Position numbers: made by a program
Shown here: positions 1 through 6,000 of the stretch, one piece after another
Layout: every line of letters begins with the position of its first letter
How positions within the stretch are numbered: position 1 is the first letter of the stretch
Virus record (IMG/VR): IMGVR_UViG_2617270975_000009
Location: 1-21,415 of that record
Length of the DNA: 21,415 nucleotides
Strand: one strand, 5' to 3'
Source: a virus
Lineage: Duplodnaviria; Heunggongvirae; Uroviricota; Caudoviricetes

Positions 1-3000
1 CGGTCCGACCCCGTACTGCTCACGCAGCTTATCCAGCAGTGGCATCATTTTTTCCAGAGGCGGTCGAACTCCGCCTTCGCAAAATAAGCGGAAGCCTGGC
101 GAAGGATATCGTTACTGCGGCGCAGTTCACGATTTTCACGCTCCAGCTCTTTCAGACGCTGACGTTCAGCGGTGGTGAGCCCTCCATCACCGCCCCCGGT
201 ATCCCGCTCATGCTGGCGAACCCAGACACGCAGAGTCTCCGGCGTACAGCCAATCTTTGGAGCAATGGAACAAATTGTCGCCCATTGTGAGTCATATTCG
301 CCCTGACTTTCCAGAACCATACGGGCTGCCCGTTGACGGACTTCAGGGGAAAAACGAGTATTTTTAGTCATCCTGTTTACCTCTTTCTCAGGAAGTTTAG
401 TCTCCAGGATTCCCGGGGCGGTTCATAAATATAGTTTTTAGAGTCCATAAAAAACCTGTCAAAACCTGACACACAGAACGACGCCACCAGCTACTGAGCG
501 GTGGCATTTTTTTGTGCTATTTGTTTCATATTCTGCAATTACGATGATGAATATTGCGATTTGTGAAACTATAATAACTGTTGTTTTATACAGTTATAAG
601 GGGCGTTATGGCTATTTCAGTAAAGCCGGTATTGATAAGTGAGAAGCAAATGGAAGCGATAAAGAAAATTCAGGAAGAGCAGCGTAAAAAATCAGGAATT
701 GGAGTAGCGCCAACTCTGCATGAAATTGCACGAGGGTTAATAGATAAGGCGCTGGCAGGCTGTATGTGAAAATGGATGGCATCGCATGGAACTAAAATTT
801 ATTGATAACCCTGTGCGATTACAGGCCTTTCTTAACGAGCCAGGCAATACCGAAAATATTGTTGAGCCGGGGCACACGTACTACATCAAGCCTGATGCGG
901 TATATCTCGGCATCTACGAAGGATTAGTGCTGGCTGGCGTTCATGAAGTGCGTAACTTCTGGCATAGCGTTGTTGAATGCCATGCGGTGTACGACCCCGG
1001 ATTCCGTGGTGAATATGCACTGCAAGGGCATCGATTATTCTGCAAATGGCTTCTCGAAAACTCACCATTCCTTAACAGCATCACTATGGTTCCTGACACC
1101 ACGAAATATGGACGGGCAATTATCCGTTTGCTTGGCGCTACCCGTGTTGGTCACCTTGATGATGCTTATATCAGATGTGGTAAACCCGTCGGCGTAACGC
1201 TTTATCAGTTAACTCGGCAACAATATAAGGAATTCAGCGAATGTTAATTACCCATATAGCTCATAAACATCTCAATCGTGCCGTATACGAAAAAGGCGGT
1301 GATGGTGGTGCCTCTAAAGCTCAGGCGAAGGCCCAGCAGCAGGCAATTGATTTGCAGCGCGAGCAGTGGAATACGGTGATGAATAATCTCAAGCCGTATG
1401 CAGAAGTCGGATTGCCTGCTTTACAACAACTGCAAGGACTGATGACTCTGGAAGGGCAGAATAAAGCCGCGAATGATTTCTTTGGTTCTGGTTTATATAA
1501 AACACAGGCAGATCAGGCCCGTTATCAGAACCTTGTCTCAGCAGAAGCTACCGGGGGGCTTGGCTCAACAGCTACCAGTAACCAGTTATCTTCCATTGCG
1601 CCCATGCTTTATAACAATTGGCTCAGTGGGCAAATGCAAAATTATGGAAACCTGCTAAATGTCGGGATGAATGCGGCATCAGGGCAGGCAACAGCAGGGC
1701 AAAACTACGCCAATAATACCGGGCAACTCTTGCAGGGGCTTGGCGCTATTCGTGCAGGTCAGGCGCAGCAGCCATCCAGTCTTGCGCGTGGTATTGGTGG
1801 GGCGGCATCAGGCGCTTTAGCGGGTGCGCAACTTGGTTCCGTTGTTCCGGGTATAGGTAATGTCGCCGGGGCTATTGGTGGTGGGCTTATTGGTCTTGTT
1901 GGGGGGCTTGGATTCTAATGGCGACATGGCAACTTGGCGGGCTGCCTAGCATGGCACCGCAAAATGATAATGCTCCTCGTTCTTCCGTTCCTCAGCCTGT
2001 GCAGTATCAGCAGCACCCAAACGTAGGTTTAATGGCGCTACAGGGGCTAAGAGGCGTTGCTGAGATTAATCAGCAGGCACGTCAACAACAGCGTAAAGCA
2101 GAGTTTCAGAAAGCATATGCCGGGGCTTTTGAGTCTGGAGACAGAAACAAAATGCGCAGTCTTATTTCTGAGTATCCAGAAGAATTTGAAAGCGTTCAGA
2201 AAGGGATGGGCTTTATTGATGACGACCAGAGAAATTCTATTGGTCATCTTGCGACTAGTGCTCAAATCGCATCTTCGCTCGGAACTGGGGCATTTGGAAA
2301 ATTCATAGCAGATAACGAAGATGAAATGCGTCGCTTGGGAATTTCTCCTGAGTCTGTTGCCGAAATGCATGTTAATGATCCACAGGGATTCCAGCGGCTT
2401 GCTGGTAGTATGGCACTGTTTTCTCTCGGTCATGAGAAGTATTTCGATATCAAAGATCAAATGGAAGGTCGGGATATTGAGCGTGGCAAGTTGGCAGAGA
2501 CAATCCGCAGCAATCAGGCTGGCGAAGCACTTCAGGCGAGAGGGCAGGATATTAGCCGAGCAAATGCGTTAACGTCAGCATATGCACCAACAGCAGCAAT
2601 GCAGAATTACAATCAGTACGCTCAAATGTTAAAGGCGGATCCAGAGGGGGCGGCGGCATTTGCGGCAGCGGCTGGAATTAATACAAACGCCAAAAAATTA
2701 ATGAGTGTTAGAGAAAACGATGATGGCACTGTCACAAAATACTACACAGACGGAAGTGAAGAGCAGGGAAAACTAACCCAGCCAATATCTGGAGATGGGT
2801 TTCGTCCAATAGCTTTGCCAACAGCCCAAAAGATCATGGAAAAGTCGCCAGAAGGGGCTAAAAAAGCTGCTGGATTTGCATACAGGGTTAGGGATGCTCT
2901 TGATTCAATAGATACACTGAAAGACCAGCTTAGCCCACAGCGAGTGGCGATCATTAATAATGCTTTGGGTAATGGGACGCTGGCTAACTTAACGCTCAGC

Positions 3001-6000
3001 CCAACAGAGCAGCAATACGTTGTTAATGCTAATGACGCAATAATGGCAATACTCCGTCAGGAAACAGGGGCAGCTATCGCACCTGCTGAAATGTCAAAAT
3101 ATTATCAAATGTATTTCCCTCAGCCTGGCGACTCCACAAAAACCATTGATACCAAGCGCCGGAAGATGGAAAACCAGTTCAATTCGCTGAAAGCTGCTTC
3201 TGGTCGAGCTTATGATGCTTTGCGGGTTATTTCAGCAGTTGACAGAGGAACTTCTTCTTCGTCGCAGACATTGCCGCAATCTGAGCAGGTATCACAGCCA
3301 GCAGCCAGCAGTAACTTTTCTTCACTATGGGGTGATTAATGGCTAAAGCATGGAAAGATGTTATCGCCTCTCCACAGTATCAGGCGTTAGCACCAGAACA
3401 AAAAGCGCAGGCTCAGGAGCAATACTTCAATGAAGTCGTTGCCCCGCAAGCCGGAGAAAGTGTAGAGCAGGCTAAGCAGGCTTTTTATGCTGCCTATCCA
3501 CTACCATCAACGAATGAAATAGACCGATCCCAATCAGCAACTCAAAATATTCAACATACATCATCTGATAATTCTCTTGCGTCAGGGTATGCAAAGTTAG
3601 CTACTCAGCAAAGAGAGGGGCTTGAGCGTTCAGCAGAACAGGGAGCCAGTCTTGGGGCTGCGATGCGCGATGCTATAACAGGCGAAAGCCGAATGACTCC
3701 AGAGATGGAGAGACTGCAAAATGTCACCTCTGCCCCAGAATTGAACTCACTAAGCATGGATGCCCTAAAGGCTGGATGGTCTCAACTTTTCGGCTCTGAC
3801 GCGTCTCAGGAAAAGATTCTTCAGGGAATGGGGGCGACATTAAGGCAGGATGAGAAGGGGAATACTATCGTTTCTCTGCCATCAGGTGATTATGCCCTGA
3901 ACAAGCCGGGTTTATCACCGCAAGACCTGACTTCGTTTCTTGCTAATGCGTTGGCGTTTACACCAGTGGGCAGGGCTGGAACGGTGCTTGGTGCCATAGG
4001 AAAATCAGCAGCTACAGATTTAGCACTACAGGGAGCCACCAGCCTTGCTGGTGGAGAAGATATTGATCCGTTACAAACGGTAATTTCTGCTGGCATTGGT
4101 GGTATTGGTAAGGGGCTGGAAAATACAGCGAGTGCGGTTTCGAGGGCTGTTCGTGGTGATATGTCGCCTGAAGCAAAGGCTGCTGTCGACTTTGCATCGG
4201 AAAGAAATCTGCCGTTAATGACCAGTGACATGCTGAAAGATAAAACCTTTATGCAGAGTCAGGCTCAGACATTAGGCGAAAGAGTTCCTTTTTTTGGAAC
4301 CGGTAAGAATCGGCTGAATCAACAACAAGCACGAGAAAATTTAGTCAGAACATTTAGCGATGGTCTGGGTGGCATTTCTGATAAACAGCTTTATGAATCT
4401 GCGACTAAAGGGCAACAAAAATTCATTGAGGCAGCAGGAAAGCGATATAACCGCATAATTGACGCTATGGGGGATACCCCTGTCGATCTCTCAAACACGG
4501 TAAAAGCTATCGACAATCAGATTGCCGTGTTAAGCCGCCCGGGCAAATCTCAGGATAGAGCCGCGGTAAAAGTCTTGCAGCAATTTAAAGACGATATCAC
4601 CAGCGGACCAAATGACCTGCGTCTGGCGAGGGAAAACAGAACCGATCTTCGAAAGCGATTTATGGCGTCATCTGACACTGTTGATAAAGATACGCTCCAG
4701 AAAGCCAGCGATATTATCTACAAGGCATATACGGCGGATATGAAAAAAGCCGTAGCCAAAAATCTTGGAGCAGACGAAGCCATTAATATGGCAAGGGTTG
4801 ATCGCTCATGGTCTAAATTCAATGACATGATGGGAAGAACGCGCGTTCAAAAGGCAATAGCCAGCGGCAAGGCCACGCCTGAGGATGTAACAAAACTCGT
4901 TTTTAGCCAAAGCCCATCAGAACGTTCTCAGCTTTACAGGCTTCTGGATGACAATGGTAGGCAAAACGCACGAGCAGCCATAGTTCAGAATGCTGTAGAT
5001 AAGGCGACTGATCCGTCTGGAAATATCAGTGTTGAGAAGTTTATTAATGCGTTACACCGGAACAGGAAGCAATCAGCAACTTTCTTTAAAGGCGTACATG
5101 GAAAGGAACTGGACGGCGTTATTAAATACCTCAACGATACAAGACACGCGGCAAAAGCGAACGTTCAAAACTTAAATGGTCAGCAGCTTTATGGATTGTT
5201 AGTTGGTGGTGGCATCATAAACGCAGCAGTATTAGCGGGGATGCTAAAAACGGCTGCGTTTGTTGTTCCTGCTGCTGGTGCCGTAGGCGGAGCAGCGAAG
5301 GCATACGAAAGCCCTGTTATACGAAATGCCTTGTTACGTCTGGCAAATACGCCAAAAGGTAGCACAGCATATGACAGAGCGATCAGTACGGTCACACAAT
5401 CGCTCACCAGAGTCGCACAGGCATCACAAAAAGAAGCTCAATAACTGGTTAGCCATGGATGGCTAATTTTTGTTCTTTGCTCTCATCCATAGGTAAAGAA
5501 GGGAAAGAACAAGACAAAAAACAGAGAATAGATAACCTACCTCATATGGTGCGCCAAAAAAATTAGCTATTGATACGGGCAAAAAAGCTGAGGCGATCAA
5601 AATTGAAAGGCAAAAAATAAGCCCAGTAATATAGTTTATTAAATTCTTAAATGAGAAACGTTTTGCTTGATTTACGGTCTTAACGAACGATCGCTTAACG
5701 ACGGATAAAAGCAAATAGATGGCGACAGTTGCTAATGCCCCTTTCCACCAGTCTGGATATAGTTTTGCGACAATCAGACCAAGGAAAACCATGATGACAG
5801 CCTGAGCATTCACACCAACCCTCCCTTTAGCTTTGTTTAGAATGGCAATCATCATATATCCAAGACATGGCATTTGGTACATAGCTTGGGTCGGGATTTC
5901 AAATCCGATCCCCGTTGATGGGGCCGTTACAGTACGCGCATATCCGCTTTATGTGAAACAGGAAGATTTTTCTGATATCACTGCCACAGCAAAACACCAA

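What the first reader, a model, noticed from the sequence alone, without database searches (positions are those of the whole stretch)
608..5444. Isolated P22-like ejection-protein operon without the rest of a virion module
Four tightly coupled genes have the sizes and order of P22 gp14-gp7-gp20-gp16, yet the window shows no capsid, portal, terminase, tail-needle or tailspike genes. IS629 lies 180 bp upstream and a satellite-like element lies downstream. This is either a decayed prophage remnant or ejection proteins retained as cargo next to a satellite.
Basis: partly seen in the sequence, partly recalled or inferred. Interest (0 to 1): 0.45.

Follow-up and report, generated by a model that had tools for sequence, protein, structure and literature searches.

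The report
Phage satellite carrying ejection-protein genes
The four P22-like DNA-ejection genes are real, but they are a built-in module of the "downstream" satellite itself, a relative of the published E. coli island EcCIMP1 read here as a closed circle with an insertion sequence in it, and related satellites carry other phage DNA-delivery proteins in the same slot.

Summary
The four genes (786-5444) are clear homologues of P22 gp14, gp7, gp20 and gp16, in that order and tightly coupled. A fifth small ORF (608-769) leads them.

They are not isolated and not merely beside a satellite. The window is a circular permutation of one 19.7-kb element carrying one IS3-family (IS629-like) insertion. 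Its layout is int-alpA-antA-ash-primase-[IS]-orf53-gp14-gp7-gp20-gp16-...-perC-pRiA4b-att. Without the IS, the same element sits at tRNA-Thr (thrW) in many E. coli genomes.

The backbone is about 98% identical to EcCIMP1, a published PICI mobilised by the P22-like phage Kapi1. That paper calls these genes hypothetical or "DNA transfer" proteins.

This copy differs in three ways:
- a swapped gp20-C-terminus/gp16/membrane-ORF unit;
- a DUF6387 cargo gene;
- the IS.

Among the 31 primase-related loci from other species that have an orf53 homologue, 25 carry a virion tail-core or DNA-delivery protein right after it. These are tape-measure proteins, transglycosylase tail or internal virion proteins, a baseplate hub, or P22 E-proteins.

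Most likely the satellite supplies its own DNA-delivery conduit for helper-built particles, as PLE satellites do with their tape measure. This function is inferred, not shown.

The parts
1..424 (-). 5' part of an IS3-family (IS629-like) insertion sequence: orfA 45-371 and its inverted-repeat end at 424. Bases 1-391 are identical to 21025-21415.
   Evidence: ALIL frameshift pseudoknot at 1-90.
425..427 (.). TAA target-site duplication. The second copy is at 20138-20140.
   Evidence: Read directly from the sequence. The IS-free relative L001 reads ...ACACCATAAATATAG... across this site.
490..505 (+). Terminator-like hairpin with a T-run, upstream of the cassette.
   Evidence: consensus scan only.
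608..769 (+). orf53, a 53-aa leader gene of the cassette. It is conserved at 43-85% identity in 31 related satellites, always directly upstream of the variable virion-protein cassette. Possibly ribbon-helix-helix.
   Evidence: No Pfam, PHROG, NCBIfam or PDB match. The AF2 model shows an extended N-terminus plus two helices, with no significant fold match. No homologue in Kapi1, P22, Sf6 or N7.
786..1247 (+). gp14-like (DUF2824) ejection-protein assembly factor.
   Evidence: 84% identical to Kapi1_055.
1241..1918 (+). gp7-like ejection protein.
1918..3339 (+). gp20-like ejection protein. Beyond nucleotide 2078 it is replaced relative to EcCIMP1.
3339..5444 (+). gp16-like ejection protein, the 701-aa allele.
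5447..5468 (+). Terminator-like hairpin directly after the gp16 stop codon.
   Evidence: consensus scan only.
5463..5882 (-). Small multi-pass membrane protein (about 4 hydrophobic segments). It converges on gp16, in the position sieA holds in P22, and belongs to the swapped unit 2079-5887.
   Evidence: No similarity to P22 SieA. No phage homologue. No PADLOC hit.
6847..7032 (-). Second AlpA/Xis-like gene (alpA_1 of EcCIMP1).
   Evidence: PMC11773190.
7548..7672 (.). Cluster of GTTGGTTCA repeats, the inverted counterpart of the cluster after the primase.
7707..7988 (+). PerC-family regulator.
8592..9486 (.). Right-end genes: pRiA4b ORF-3 family (8592-9134, +) and a 119-aa ORF (9127-9486, -).
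9688..9714 (+). att core (TCCTATTATCGGCACCA..., the 3' end of tRNA-Thr). It joins the element's right end to its left end, giving an attP-type junction.
   Evidence: Core TCCTATTATC as reported for EcCIMP1.
9870..11084 (+). Tyrosine integrase.
11145..12108 (+). int-alpA RNA (11145-11212) and the DUF6387 cargo gene (11227-12108). This lies in the variable stretch 11061-12314, which is absent from EcCIMP1.
12306..15016 (+). Regulatory module: alpA (12306-12503), a 143-aa ORF, antA (12947-13780), DUF4222, ash (13949-15016). isrK-like (14330-14407) and C4 antisense-like (14470-14557) RNAs lie inside it.
16976..19735 (+). Zn-ribbon/TOPRIM/DUF927 primase.
19759..19873 (.). GTTGGTTCA iterons downstream of the primase. 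Probable replication origin.
   Evidence: One search shows the repeats. The origin function is inferred.
20141..21415 (-). The same IS3-family (IS629-like) element: orfB 20182-21072, orfA 21069-21395. It is inserted between the origin region and orf53.

Best explanation
The operon is the virion-protein cassette of an EcCIMP1-type phage-inducible chromosomal island (PICI) whose helpers are P22-like podoviruses (Lederbergvirus).

What is shown:
- The window is one satellite of 19,740 bp without the IS. It is read as an excised circle or one unit of a head-to-tail repeat, with one IS3-family insertion between the origin region and the cassette.
- The cassette is orf53-gp14-gp7-gp20-gp16. It lies downstream of the primase and is bracketed by terminator-like hairpins.
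- Related satellites keep orf53 and, in most cases, place a different phage DNA-delivery or tail-core protein after it.

What is inferred:
- When a helper enters lytic growth, AlpA switches the island on. The island excises at the thrW att site, replicates from its primase and iterons, and is packaged by headful into helper capsids. Two copies are about one P22-like headful.
- The cassette is expressed late. gp14 helps load the satellite's own gp7, gp20 and gp16 into helper procapsids through the scaffold-dependent route.
- Particles that carry the island therefore deliver it through a satellite-specified trans-envelope conduit instead of, or mixed with, the helper's.
- The probable benefit is delivery that does not depend on the helper's E-protein allele. 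This could allow use of several helpers, or escape from SieA-type exclusion, which acts on the gp20/gp16 C-termini.
For: Identity of the element:
- IS-free copies show the single-element order at thrW.
- The backbone is 97.8-98.8% identical to EcCIMP1 of strain MP1.
- EcCIMP1 excises, circularises and is transduced only with Kapi1, and needs alpA and int for this (PMC11773190).

Homology of the four genes.

Maintenance:
- The exact gp16 protein is listed in 1005 blocks of the collection, and all 10 places shown have the satellite context.
- 253 of 5426 complete E. coli genomes hold at least 80% of 608-1918, against 361 that hold the primase.
- dN/dS is 0.07-0.08 between the E. coli and Leclercia satellite copies.

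Not a copy of the helper's set:
- EcCIMP1 against its proven helper Kapi1 gives gp14 83%, gp7 57%, gp20 26% and gp16 24% identity.
- The best sequenced-phage match to this window's gp16 is 66%, and to its gp20 53%.

The swap boundary fits known function:
- Against EcCIMP1, the replaced unit is gp20 from codon ~54, gp16 and the downstream envelope gene, at 2079-5887.
- In P22, gp20 and gp16 must be a cognate pair, gp7 can be exchanged alone, and foreign E-proteins assemble into P22 virions and work (PMC10883804).
- gp7 and gp20 bind procapsids through their N-terminal parts (PMC8402733).

Family pattern:
- In 25 of 31 related satellites with an orf53 homologue, the gene or genes right after it encode a tape measure (11), a transglycosylase tail or tape-measure-like protein (6), an internal-virion-like protein (5), a baseplate hub (1) or P22 E-proteins (2).
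- In Lonsdalea the tape-measure cassette lies inside att repeats at 2911 and 20558.

Precedent: PLE satellites encode their own tape measure, chaperone and hub, build them into chimeric tails, and need them for transduction (PMC12987554).
Against: - Nothing here or in the literature I could search shows that the satellite's E-proteins are expressed, enter particles, or matter for transfer.
- EcCIMP1 is transduced by Kapi1 only at very low frequency, and it does not change Kapi1 titres.
- Only 2 of 21 EcCIMP1 strains carry a Kapi1-like prophage.
- Relatives without a cassette exist: about 12.2-kb att-bounded versions in L021 and L079, and a 12,152-bp circular record that keeps only a gp20 fragment. 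The module is therefore dispensable for excision and replication, and it can decay.
- The low dN/dS could partly reflect selection in phages before separate captures.
- The circular reading of the window rests on the att junction and the IS flanks. A tandem duplication would look the same.
Confidence: 0.55

Rival explanations
1. Interference or immunity module. The satellite's non-cognate gp20/gp16, and/or the linked envelope protein downstream of gp16, act against phages. They could poison the conduits of helper or superinfecting P22-like virions, or block incoming DNA at the inner membrane. On this reading they do not serve the satellite's own delivery.
For: - EcCIMP1 adds to superinfection immunity against Kapi1 in lysogens, and no known defence system was found in it. 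I also found no PADLOC hits.
- P22 particles with a mismatched gp16 or gp20 are non-infectious.
- Each gp16 allele travels with its own envelope gene in the sieA position: a ~4-TM protein here and a lipoprotein (lipobox LAGC) in MP1.
- Other cargo in the same gp16-perC region includes Abi_2.
- PICIs are known to carry tail-assembly-interference systems (PMC11364771, listed).
Against: - EcCIMP1 does not lower Kapi1 titres after induction, and it does not protect non-lysogens.
- A poison would not need a complete gp14-gp7-gp20-gp16 set kept under purifying selection.
- The membrane ORF lacks the SieA motif and shows no similarity to SieA.
Confidence: 0.2
2. Passive hitch-hiker. One recombination with a P22-like helper captured the distal end of its late operon (14-7-20-16 plus the following moron). 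The genes persist without any role for the satellite.
For: - The block is a contiguous slice of the P22-like gene order.
- Some lineages have lost it or retain fragments.
- O157-type genomes keep only pieces.
Against: - The genes are intact in hundreds of genomes.
- dN/dS is 0.07-0.08.
- The alleles are far from any sequenced phage.
- Allele exchange respects the functional gp20C-gp16 unit.
- Unrelated tape-measure and internal-virion cassettes occupy the same orf53-led slot in other genera, often with overlapping stop and start codons. That is hard to explain by repeated accidents.
Confidence: 0.13
3. Decayed P22-like prophage remnant that merely lies beside an independent satellite, separated from its head genes by the IS.
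For: In window coordinates the operon is flanked by an IS and is not contiguous with int-primase.
Against: - IS-free genomes show primase-orf53-gp14... as one att-bounded element, with chromosomal genes (proA/thrW and paoD/yagU) on both sides and no head or tail genes.
- The IS has a single target duplication.
- The att core joins the two halves.
Confidence: 0.02

Closest known systems
EcCIMP1, the PICI of E. coli MP1 with helper vB_EcoP_Kapi1 (Pick, Stadel & Raivio, ISME J 2025, PMC11773190)
   Same: - Same thrW att core.
- Same gene order: int, alpA, antA, ash, primase, small ORF, DUF2824, gp7-like, gp20-like, gp16-like, alpA_1, perC, pRiA4b ORF-3.
- 97.8-98.8% nucleotide identity over the backbone.
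- Similar size: 19,740 bp without the IS, against 19,963 bp.
   Different: - gp20 beyond codon ~54, gp16 (701 aa here; 906 aa with an SLT domain in MP1) and the gene after it (membrane protein here; lipoprotein in MP1) are replaced by unrelated alleles.
- There is an extra DUF6387 gene between int and alpA.
- There is an IS3-family insertion.
- This copy is captured with a joined att site.
- The paper treats the module as hypothetical or 'DNA transfer' packaging candidates. It does not name it as the P22 ejection-protein set.
P22-like (Lederbergvirus) ejection-protein genes 14-7-20-16 with the sieA locus
   Same: Homologous proteins, same order, same tight coupling, and a small membrane-protein gene converging on gene 16.
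   Different: - No gene 26 upstream, no tailspike downstream, and no head genes.
- The block is led by a satellite-specific 53-aa ORF that is absent from the four P22-like phages checked.
- The membrane ORF is not a SieA homologue.
PLE satellites of Vibrio cholerae, which encode their own tape measure, tail-assembly chaperone and baseplate hub (Mathur, Boyd et al., Nature 2026, PMC12987554)
   Same: A satellite carries the virion's DNA-channel or tail-core proteins together with an assembly helper, while taking the rest of the virion from the phage. In related satellites the orf53-led slot does hold tape measures and a baseplate hub.
   Different: - Unrelated satellite lineage, and a myovirus helper.
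- The PLE proteins are shown to enter virions and to be needed for transduction. For the P22-type cassette this is only inferred.
- E-proteins are loaded into the capsid, not the tail.
Classical Gram-negative PICIs (EcCICFT073, EcCIEDL933) and cf-PICIs
   Same: The int-alpA-primase backbone, tRNA integration, and a helper-related module downstream of the primase.
   Different: - Those islands carry packaging-redirection genes or full capsid and terminase genes.
- None of those was found here.
- EcCIMP1 clusters away from them.

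Membership tests
P22-type ejection-protein operon (gp14-gp7-gp20-gp16) | Homology of all four products to gp14, gp7, gp20 and gp16. | tested here: met
   Pfam DUF2824, P22_gp7 and Inj_translocase; phrog_651/598/917/770. PF26808 Phage_P22_gp16 on the identical protein. BLASTP to P22 and Sf6 proteins.
P22-type ejection-protein operon (gp14-gp7-gp20-gp16) | Gene order 14-7-20-16, co-oriented and tightly coupled. | tested here: met
   ORFs 786-1247, 1241-1918, 1918-3339 and 3339-5444. Same order in P22, Sf6, Kapi1 and N7.
P22-type ejection-protein operon (gp14-gp7-gp20-gp16) | Location in a virion late operon, after the needle gene and before the tailspike. | tested here: not met
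   Preceded by the primase, origin region and orf53. Followed by regulatory genes and the att site. No head or tail genes.
P22-type ejection-protein operon (gp14-gp7-gp20-gp16) | The proteins are packaged in virions and ejected to form the DNA conduit. | not testable with these tools
   Needs particle proteomics or genetics.
PICI (Gram-negative phage-inducible chromosomal island) | Size roughly 7-20 kb, integrase at one end, specific att site. | tested here: met
   19,740 bp without the IS. Integrase at 9870-11084. att core at the 3' end of tRNA-Thr.
PICI (Gram-negative phage-inducible chromosomal island) | alpA regulator after int, and a primase/replication module with an origin. | tested here: met
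   AlpA at 12306-12503 and the Zn-ribbon/TOPRIM/DUF927 primase. int-alpA RNA. Iterons after the primase.
PICI (Gram-negative phage-inducible chromosomal island) | No capsid, terminase, tail or lysis genes of its own. | tested here: met
   None among the ORFs scanned. The exception is the ejection-protein cassette itself.
PICI (Gram-negative phage-inducible chromosomal island) | Helper-dependent induction, excision and high-frequency packaging. | not testable with these tools
   Shown for the 98%-identical EcCIMP1 with Kapi1, though at low transfer frequency. For this copy there is only the joined att site.
EcCIMP1-like elements | Backbone identity and synteny with EcCIMP1 (OR778291 / CP139039 3,565,708-3,585,670). 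| tested here: met
   97.8-98.8% identity over 424-2078, 5888-9714, 9688-11060 and 12315-20139. Two replaced stretches.
SieA superinfection-exclusion proteins (for ORF 5463-5882) | Small inner-membrane protein encoded just after gene 16. | tested here: met
   Converges on gp16. About 4 hydrophobic segments by Kyte-Doolittle analysis.
SieA superinfection-exclusion proteins (for ORF 5463-5882) | Sequence similarity to SieA types A-C, including the FxRYPxEAxxFNK motif. | tested here: not met
   BLASTP to P22 SieA gives E 0.95. The motif is absent from the translation. No phage homologue.
P4-like satellites | psu, delta and sid capsid-hijacking genes. | tested here: not met
   No such family among the Pfam or PHROG hits of the ORFs scanned. 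Only the shared features are present: alpA, ash, a C4-like RNA and a primase.
Satellite-encoded virion delivery module (PLE tmp-tac-bhuB type) | The satellite encodes the DNA-channel or tail-core protein plus an assembly helper, while lacking the rest of the virion. | tested here: met
   gp14 plus gp7/gp20/gp16 here. A 108-aa ORF plus tape measure, transglycosylase tail proteins, internal-virion-like proteins or a baseplate hub in relatives.
Satellite-encoded virion delivery module (PLE tmp-tac-bhuB type) | The satellite protein replaces the phage's in satellite particles and is needed for transduction. | not testable with these tools
   Shown only for PLE.

The most novel reading that the evidence does not exclude
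EcCIMP1-like satellites across Enterobacterales share a swappable 'genome-delivery cassette'. It is headed by a conserved ~55-aa gene (orf53) and holds whichever protein set forms the helper's DNA channel. That set is P22-type ejection proteins for podovirus helpers, and tape measure plus partner, transglycosylase tail proteins, internal virion proteins or a baseplate hub for others.

On this reading, satellites routinely equip stolen particles with their own entry device. This would let them use several helpers and slip past exclusion systems that recognise the helper's conduit, such as SieA acting on gp20/gp16 or Ltp/gp15-type systems acting on tape measures. It would make the PLE tape-measure result a general rule and extend it to capsid-loaded ejection proteins.
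Probability: 0.4. Interest if true: 0.8.

Novelty: new member of a known kind. Interest (0 to 1): 0.55.

Why it matters
Taken alone, the window is an ordinary variant of a published satellite.

The re-reading matters for three reasons.

1. It names EcCIMP1's unexplained 'packaging-position' genes as a complete P22 ejection-protein set. That gives this common island a concrete, testable role. At least 80% of the orf53-gp14-gp7 stretch is present in 253 of 5426 complete E. coli genomes.

2. Related satellites appear to exchange delivery cassettes at one conserved slot. The papers I could search credit satellite-encoded tape measures only to PLE, with putative ones in PLE-like elements and cf-PICIs, and to EPIPs. 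I found none that link satellites with ejection proteins.

3. It suggests why P22-like ejection proteins are so mosaic, and how satellites might reach cells protected by exclusion systems.

Tried and rejected
**Source of the window.** I could not find it.
- Exact-pattern scans for the IS/cassette junction and the att junction found nothing in viral contigs or metagenome contigs.
- No complete E. coli genome holds the att junction above 92% identity.
- None holds this IS junction.
- Look-ups of the 119-aa protein and the integrase returned only integrated copies.
- Circle and tandem repeat therefore cannot be told apart.

**SieA identity of ORF 5463-5882.** Rejected.
- No similarity to P22 SieA and no SieA motif.
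- No PADLOC, Pfam or PHROG hit, and only a sub-threshold NCBIfam hit.
- No phage homologue.

**orf53 as a ribbon-helix-helix protein.** Left open.
- The profile search against PDB gave nothing.
- The single-sequence AF2 model (pLDDT 78) shows an extended N-terminus and two helices.
- Foldseek gave no significant match.

**P22-type E-genes as a universal feature of the primase-defined family.** Rejected. Only 3 of 77 loci have them.

**Tape measures as helper prophage genes flanking an embedded satellite (HE-PICI model).** Rejected for the cases checked.
- No other tail genes flank them.
- In L026 and L068 the att repeats enclose the cassette.

**Other checks.**
- No tRNA gene lies in the window.
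- The MP1 transcriptome paper gives no per-gene data, and no supplement is held as text.

Full report
**Observation**

ORFs 786-1247, 1241-1918, 1918-3339 and 3339-5444 lie on the + strand and overlap by 7, 1 and 1 nt. Their family matches are as follows.
- 786-1247: Pfam DUF2824 and phrog_651, the gp14 family.
- 1241-1918: Pfam P22_gp7.
- 1918-3339: Pfam Inj_translocase, the gp20 family.
- 3339-5444: phrog_770 'DNA transfer protein'. The identical 701-aa protein carries a precomputed Pfam Phage_P22_gp16 hit.

Pairwise BLASTP to the P22 proteins gives 23% identity for gp14 (E 2e-8), 56% for gp7, 38% for the gp20 N-terminal domain, and 30% over 478 aa for gp16. Sf6 gp13 aligns over its full length at 33%, with an almost identical first 60 residues. 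The observation therefore holds.

The finding's start coordinate, 608, belongs to a separate 53-aa ORF (608-769). An IS3-family element ends at 424. None of the other main ORFs hits a head, portal, terminase, needle or tailspike family.

**Anatomy**

The rest of the window encodes these genes:
- a tyrosine integrase (9870-11084);
- a DUF6387 protein;
- AlpA;
- AntA, DUF4222 and Ash;
- a Zn-ribbon/TOPRIM/DUF927 primase (16976-19735);
- a second AlpA/Xis-like gene;
- PerC;
- a pRiA4b ORF-3 protein.

In E. coli CFSAN061761 the same DNA, at 99.9% identity, forms a single island. Its order is proA - tRNA-Thr - int - alpA - antA - ash - ... - primase - 53-aa ORF - DUF2824 - gp7 - gp20 - gp16 - ... 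- PerC - pRiA4b - 119-aa ORF - paoD.

BLAST of the window against that locus shows three things.
- Window 424-9714 equals the island's right half.
- Window 9688-20139 equals its left half.
- The 27-nt stretch 9688-9714 matches both attL and attR.

So the window contains a joined, attP-type site. The left IS copy is followed by TAA and the right copy is preceded by TAA. The uninterrupted relative reads ...CCATAAATAT... across that point. This indicates one insertion with a 3-bp duplication. The first 391 nt equal the last 391 nt.

The window is therefore a 21,024-bp circle, or one unit of a head-to-tail repeat, made of a 19,740-bp island plus one IS. The operon and the 'downstream satellite' are the same element.

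Related islands are deposited as circular 'plasmids' of 12.2 and 19.2 kb. This fits excised forms being assembled as circles. I could not find the source record.

**What the element is**

A literature search led to EcCIMP1 (PMC11773190). It is a 19,963-bp PICI at tRNA-Thr between proA and yagU in E. coli MP1. Only in the presence of the P22-like temperate phage Kapi1 does it excise, circularise and get transduced, and this needs alpA and int. It adds to superinfection immunity in Kapi1 lysogens. Its PerC-like gene represses the LEE.

The window's backbone is 97.8-98.8% identical to the MP1 locus.

The paper colours the module 'DNA transfer'. It calls EcCIMP1_017-019 hypothetical proteins that are candidates for packaging. 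The words 'ejection' and 'gp16' do not occur in its text.

In the library I could search, none of the 20 listed papers with 'phage satellite' or 'helper phage' also contained 'ejection proteins'. Two of the papers listed combine 'satellite', 'PICI' and 'ejection protein'. I did not read them.

**How this copy differs from EcCIMP1**

- Window 2079-5887 has no nucleotide match in MP1. It covers gp20 from about codon 54, all of gp16, and the convergent ORF 5463-5882.
- MP1 instead has a 439-aa gp20, a 906-aa gp16 with an SLT domain, and a 232-aa lipoprotein.
- The two gp16 alleles give no BLASTP hit to each other.
- Stretch 11061-12314, holding the DUF6387 gene, is also absent from MP1.
- Each gp16 allele is seen with its own downstream envelope gene in other genomes.

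The 139-aa ORF has about four hydrophobic segments and sits where sieA sits in P22. It has no similarity to SieA, lacks the SieA motif, and has no homologue in the phage collection.

**Is the operon maintained?**

- The exact 701-aa protein is listed in 1005 blocks of the assembly collection. All 10 places shown have the primase-to-cassette-to-PerC context.
- At least 80% of 608-1918 occurs in 253 of 5426 complete E. coli genomes. The primase occurs in 361.
- A Leclercia satellite (L045) carries the MP1-type set at 81-88% amino-acid identity. dN/dS is 0.067-0.084 with dS of 1 or more.
- Loss also happens. A 12,152-bp circular relative keeps orf53 and only a gp20 fragment. L021 and L079 are 12.2-kb att-bounded versions with no cassette.

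**Relation to helper genes**

In the experimentally proven pair, EcCIMP1 against Kapi1, identities are gp14 83%, gp7 57%, gp20 26% and gp16 24%. For the window's alleles, the nearest sequenced phage proteins are 66% identical for gp16 (phages N7 and HZ41) and 53% for gp20 (APSE phages). The satellite therefore does not duplicate its helper's conduit. It carries a different one, while keeping a helper-like assembly factor.

Established P22 work makes that workable.
- E-proteins of Sf6, L, CUS-3 and HK620 assemble into P22 virions and function.
- gp20 and gp16 must be a cognate pair, whereas gp7 can be swapped alone.
- SieA escape maps to the C-terminal parts of gp16 and gp20 (PMC10883804).
- gp7 and gp20 bind procapsids through their N-terminal parts, and loading needs scaffolding protein (PMC8402733).

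The swap boundary seen here is a conserved gp14, gp7 and gp20 start, with a replaced gp20 remainder plus gp16. That matches those functional units.

**Family-wide pattern (beyond the given finding)**

A scan of one genome per species for relatives of the primase returned 77 loci. Only three carry P22-type E-genes:
- L016, an Escherichia sp. element with the same backbone and cassette alleles as the window (94-100% amino-acid identity);
- L045, from Leclercia;
- L046, from Pectobacterium, with a single 1425-aa ORF that combines phrog_601, a gp20 C-terminal part and gp16.

However, 31 loci have a homologue of orf53. The next gene starts within a few nucleotides of its stop codon, and the two often overlap. 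What follows falls into these classes:

| Cassette after orf53 | Loci |
|---|---|
| 108-aa ORF plus a full-length tape-measure protein | 11 |
| Tape-measure-like or transglycosylase 'lytic tail' protein | 6 |
| Internal-virion-like proteins (phrog_1044/992, with phrog_3003 and phrog_684 in L052) | 5 |
| Baseplate hub | 1 |
| P22-type E-proteins | 2 |
| Small ORFs, unknown or not scanned | 6 |

No other tail genes flank the tape measures. In Lonsdalea (L026), 17-nt att cores at 2911 and 20558 enclose int...primase-perC-orf53-108-aa ORF-tape measure...pRiA4b-119-aa ORF. The last two are 95-96% identical to the window's right-end proteins. orf53 has no homologue in Kapi1, P22, Sf6 or N7.

The slot after orf53 therefore behaves as an exchange site for DNA-channel and tail-core proteins.

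**Precedent**

PLE satellites of Vibrio encode a tape measure, a chaperone and a baseplate hub. These replace ICP1's proteins in PLE particles and are needed for transduction. Those authors state that no other satellite had been reported to encode a tape measure, and they point to putative tmp genes in PLE-like elements and cf-PICIs (PMC12987554). EPIP satellites of Mycolicibacterium also carry one. No paper in the searchable library combines 'tape measure', 'AlpA', 'satellite' and 'primase'.

**Mechanism proposed**

Shown:
- the anatomy of the element;
- the homology of the four genes;
- their conservation;
- the cassette pattern in relatives.

Shown for a 98%-identical relative: helper-dependent excision and transfer.

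Inferred:
- After helper induction the cassette is expressed, and gp14 helps load satellite gp7, gp20 and gp16 into helper procapsids.
- Particles carrying the island then inject through that conduit.
- Two copies of the island (39.5 kb, or 42.0 kb with the IS) are close to a P22-like headful. Kapi1's genome is 39.4 kb and the P22 headful is 43.4 kb. No capsid resizing would then be required.
- The likely gain is independence from the helper's allele and possibly escape from exclusion.

I put this mechanism at about 0.55. The identity of the element I put near 0.95.

**Rivals**

- An interference or immunity role, at about 0.2. It fits the EcCIMP1 immunity phenotype and the linked envelope genes. 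It does not fit the unchanged Kapi1 titres.
- Neutral hitch-hiking, at about 0.13.
- A prophage remnant beside a satellite, at about 0.02. This is contradicted by the IS-free loci.

**Novelty and score**

The feature in the window is a new member of a published family, so the finding as written is largely explained.

Three things raise the interest:
- the module can now be named as a complete ejection-protein set;
- its alleles are swapped in functional units;
- sister satellites place tape measures and other entry proteins in the same slot.

That is a testable generalisation of a very recent result. Interest: 0.55.

Noticed in passing
L019, L020, L026, L029, L034, L035, L036, L039, L041, L058, L065 (for example L034:14293-18042): Satellites with the same int-alpA-primase backbone in Enterobacter, Klebsiella, Lonsdalea, Pluralibacter, Chimaeribacter, Pantoea, Erwinia and Symbiopectobacterium carry a 108-aa ORF (phrog_19131) plus a full-length tape-measure protein directly after an orf53 homologue. 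No other tail genes are present.
   Followed up: partly
L052:14758-21651; L027:17927-22256; L030: In Leclercia and Klebsiella satellites the same slot holds large consecutive ORFs: 888, 565 and 849 aa in L052 (phrog_1044/992 with a transglycosylase, phrog_3003/342, phrog_684). They resemble the internal virion or ejection proteins of another podovirus type.
   Followed up: partly
L046:15130-19407: A Pectobacterium satellite encodes a single 1425-aa protein that combines phrog_601, a gp20 C-terminal part and a full gp16-like region. It looks like a fused ejection protein.
   Followed up: no
window 11061-12314 (gene 11227-12108): A DUF6387 gene sits between int and alpA. It is absent from EcCIMP1 and from CFSAN061761, but present with the identical integrase in many genomes. 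This is a variable hotspot. There is no PADLOC hit, so it is at most a candidate defence cargo.
   Followed up: partly
window 14330-14557: Rfam isrK Hfq-binding RNA (14330-14407) and C4 antisense RNA (14470-14557) lie inside the annotated ash ORF. This suggests a P1/P4-type RNA-based immunity region. MP1 has an Icd-like gene nearby.
   Followed up: no
window 11145-11212: Rfam int-alpA RNA lies between the integrase and the DUF6387 gene.
   Followed up: no
window 19759-19873 and 7548-7672: There are two clusters of GTTGGTTCA repeats in opposite orientation. One follows the primase and is the probable origin. The other lies upstream of perC. The role of the second cluster is unknown.
   Followed up: partly
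window 5463-5882 (-); L002:12632-13330 (-): Each gp16 allele travels with a different envelope protein gene in the sieA position: a ~4-TM protein here and a 232-aa lipoprotein (MIKNLLLILSLSLLAGC...) in EcCIMP1 of MP1. Both are candidates for the unexplained EcCIMP1 superinfection immunity.
   Followed up: partly
L104 (NZ_CP148430.1, 12,152 bp); L103 (CP031370.2, 19,229 bp): Relatives of this satellite are deposited as circular 'plasmids' in E. coli and Klebsiella pneumoniae. The E. coli one keeps orf53 and only a ~140-aa gp20 fragment.
   Followed up: partly
L094, L101; H137-H142: O157-type and other STEC genomes hold rearranged remnants of the island, with IS3-family copies. They keep the right-end genes and the 129-aa membrane ORF, or a DUF2824 fragment, but not the full E-operon.
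   Followed up: no
L096:8401-9378: In some copies the stretch between gp16 and perC carries an Abi_2 (abortive infection) gene or IS elements. This stretch is a second variable cargo region.
   Followed up: no
window 3308-3507: The gp20/gp16 junction, comprising the last residues of gp20 and the first ~60 residues of gp16, is 96.5% identical in nucleotides to Sf6 and matches many P22-like phages. It is a conserved island between divergent flanks and a likely recombination joint.
   Followed up: no
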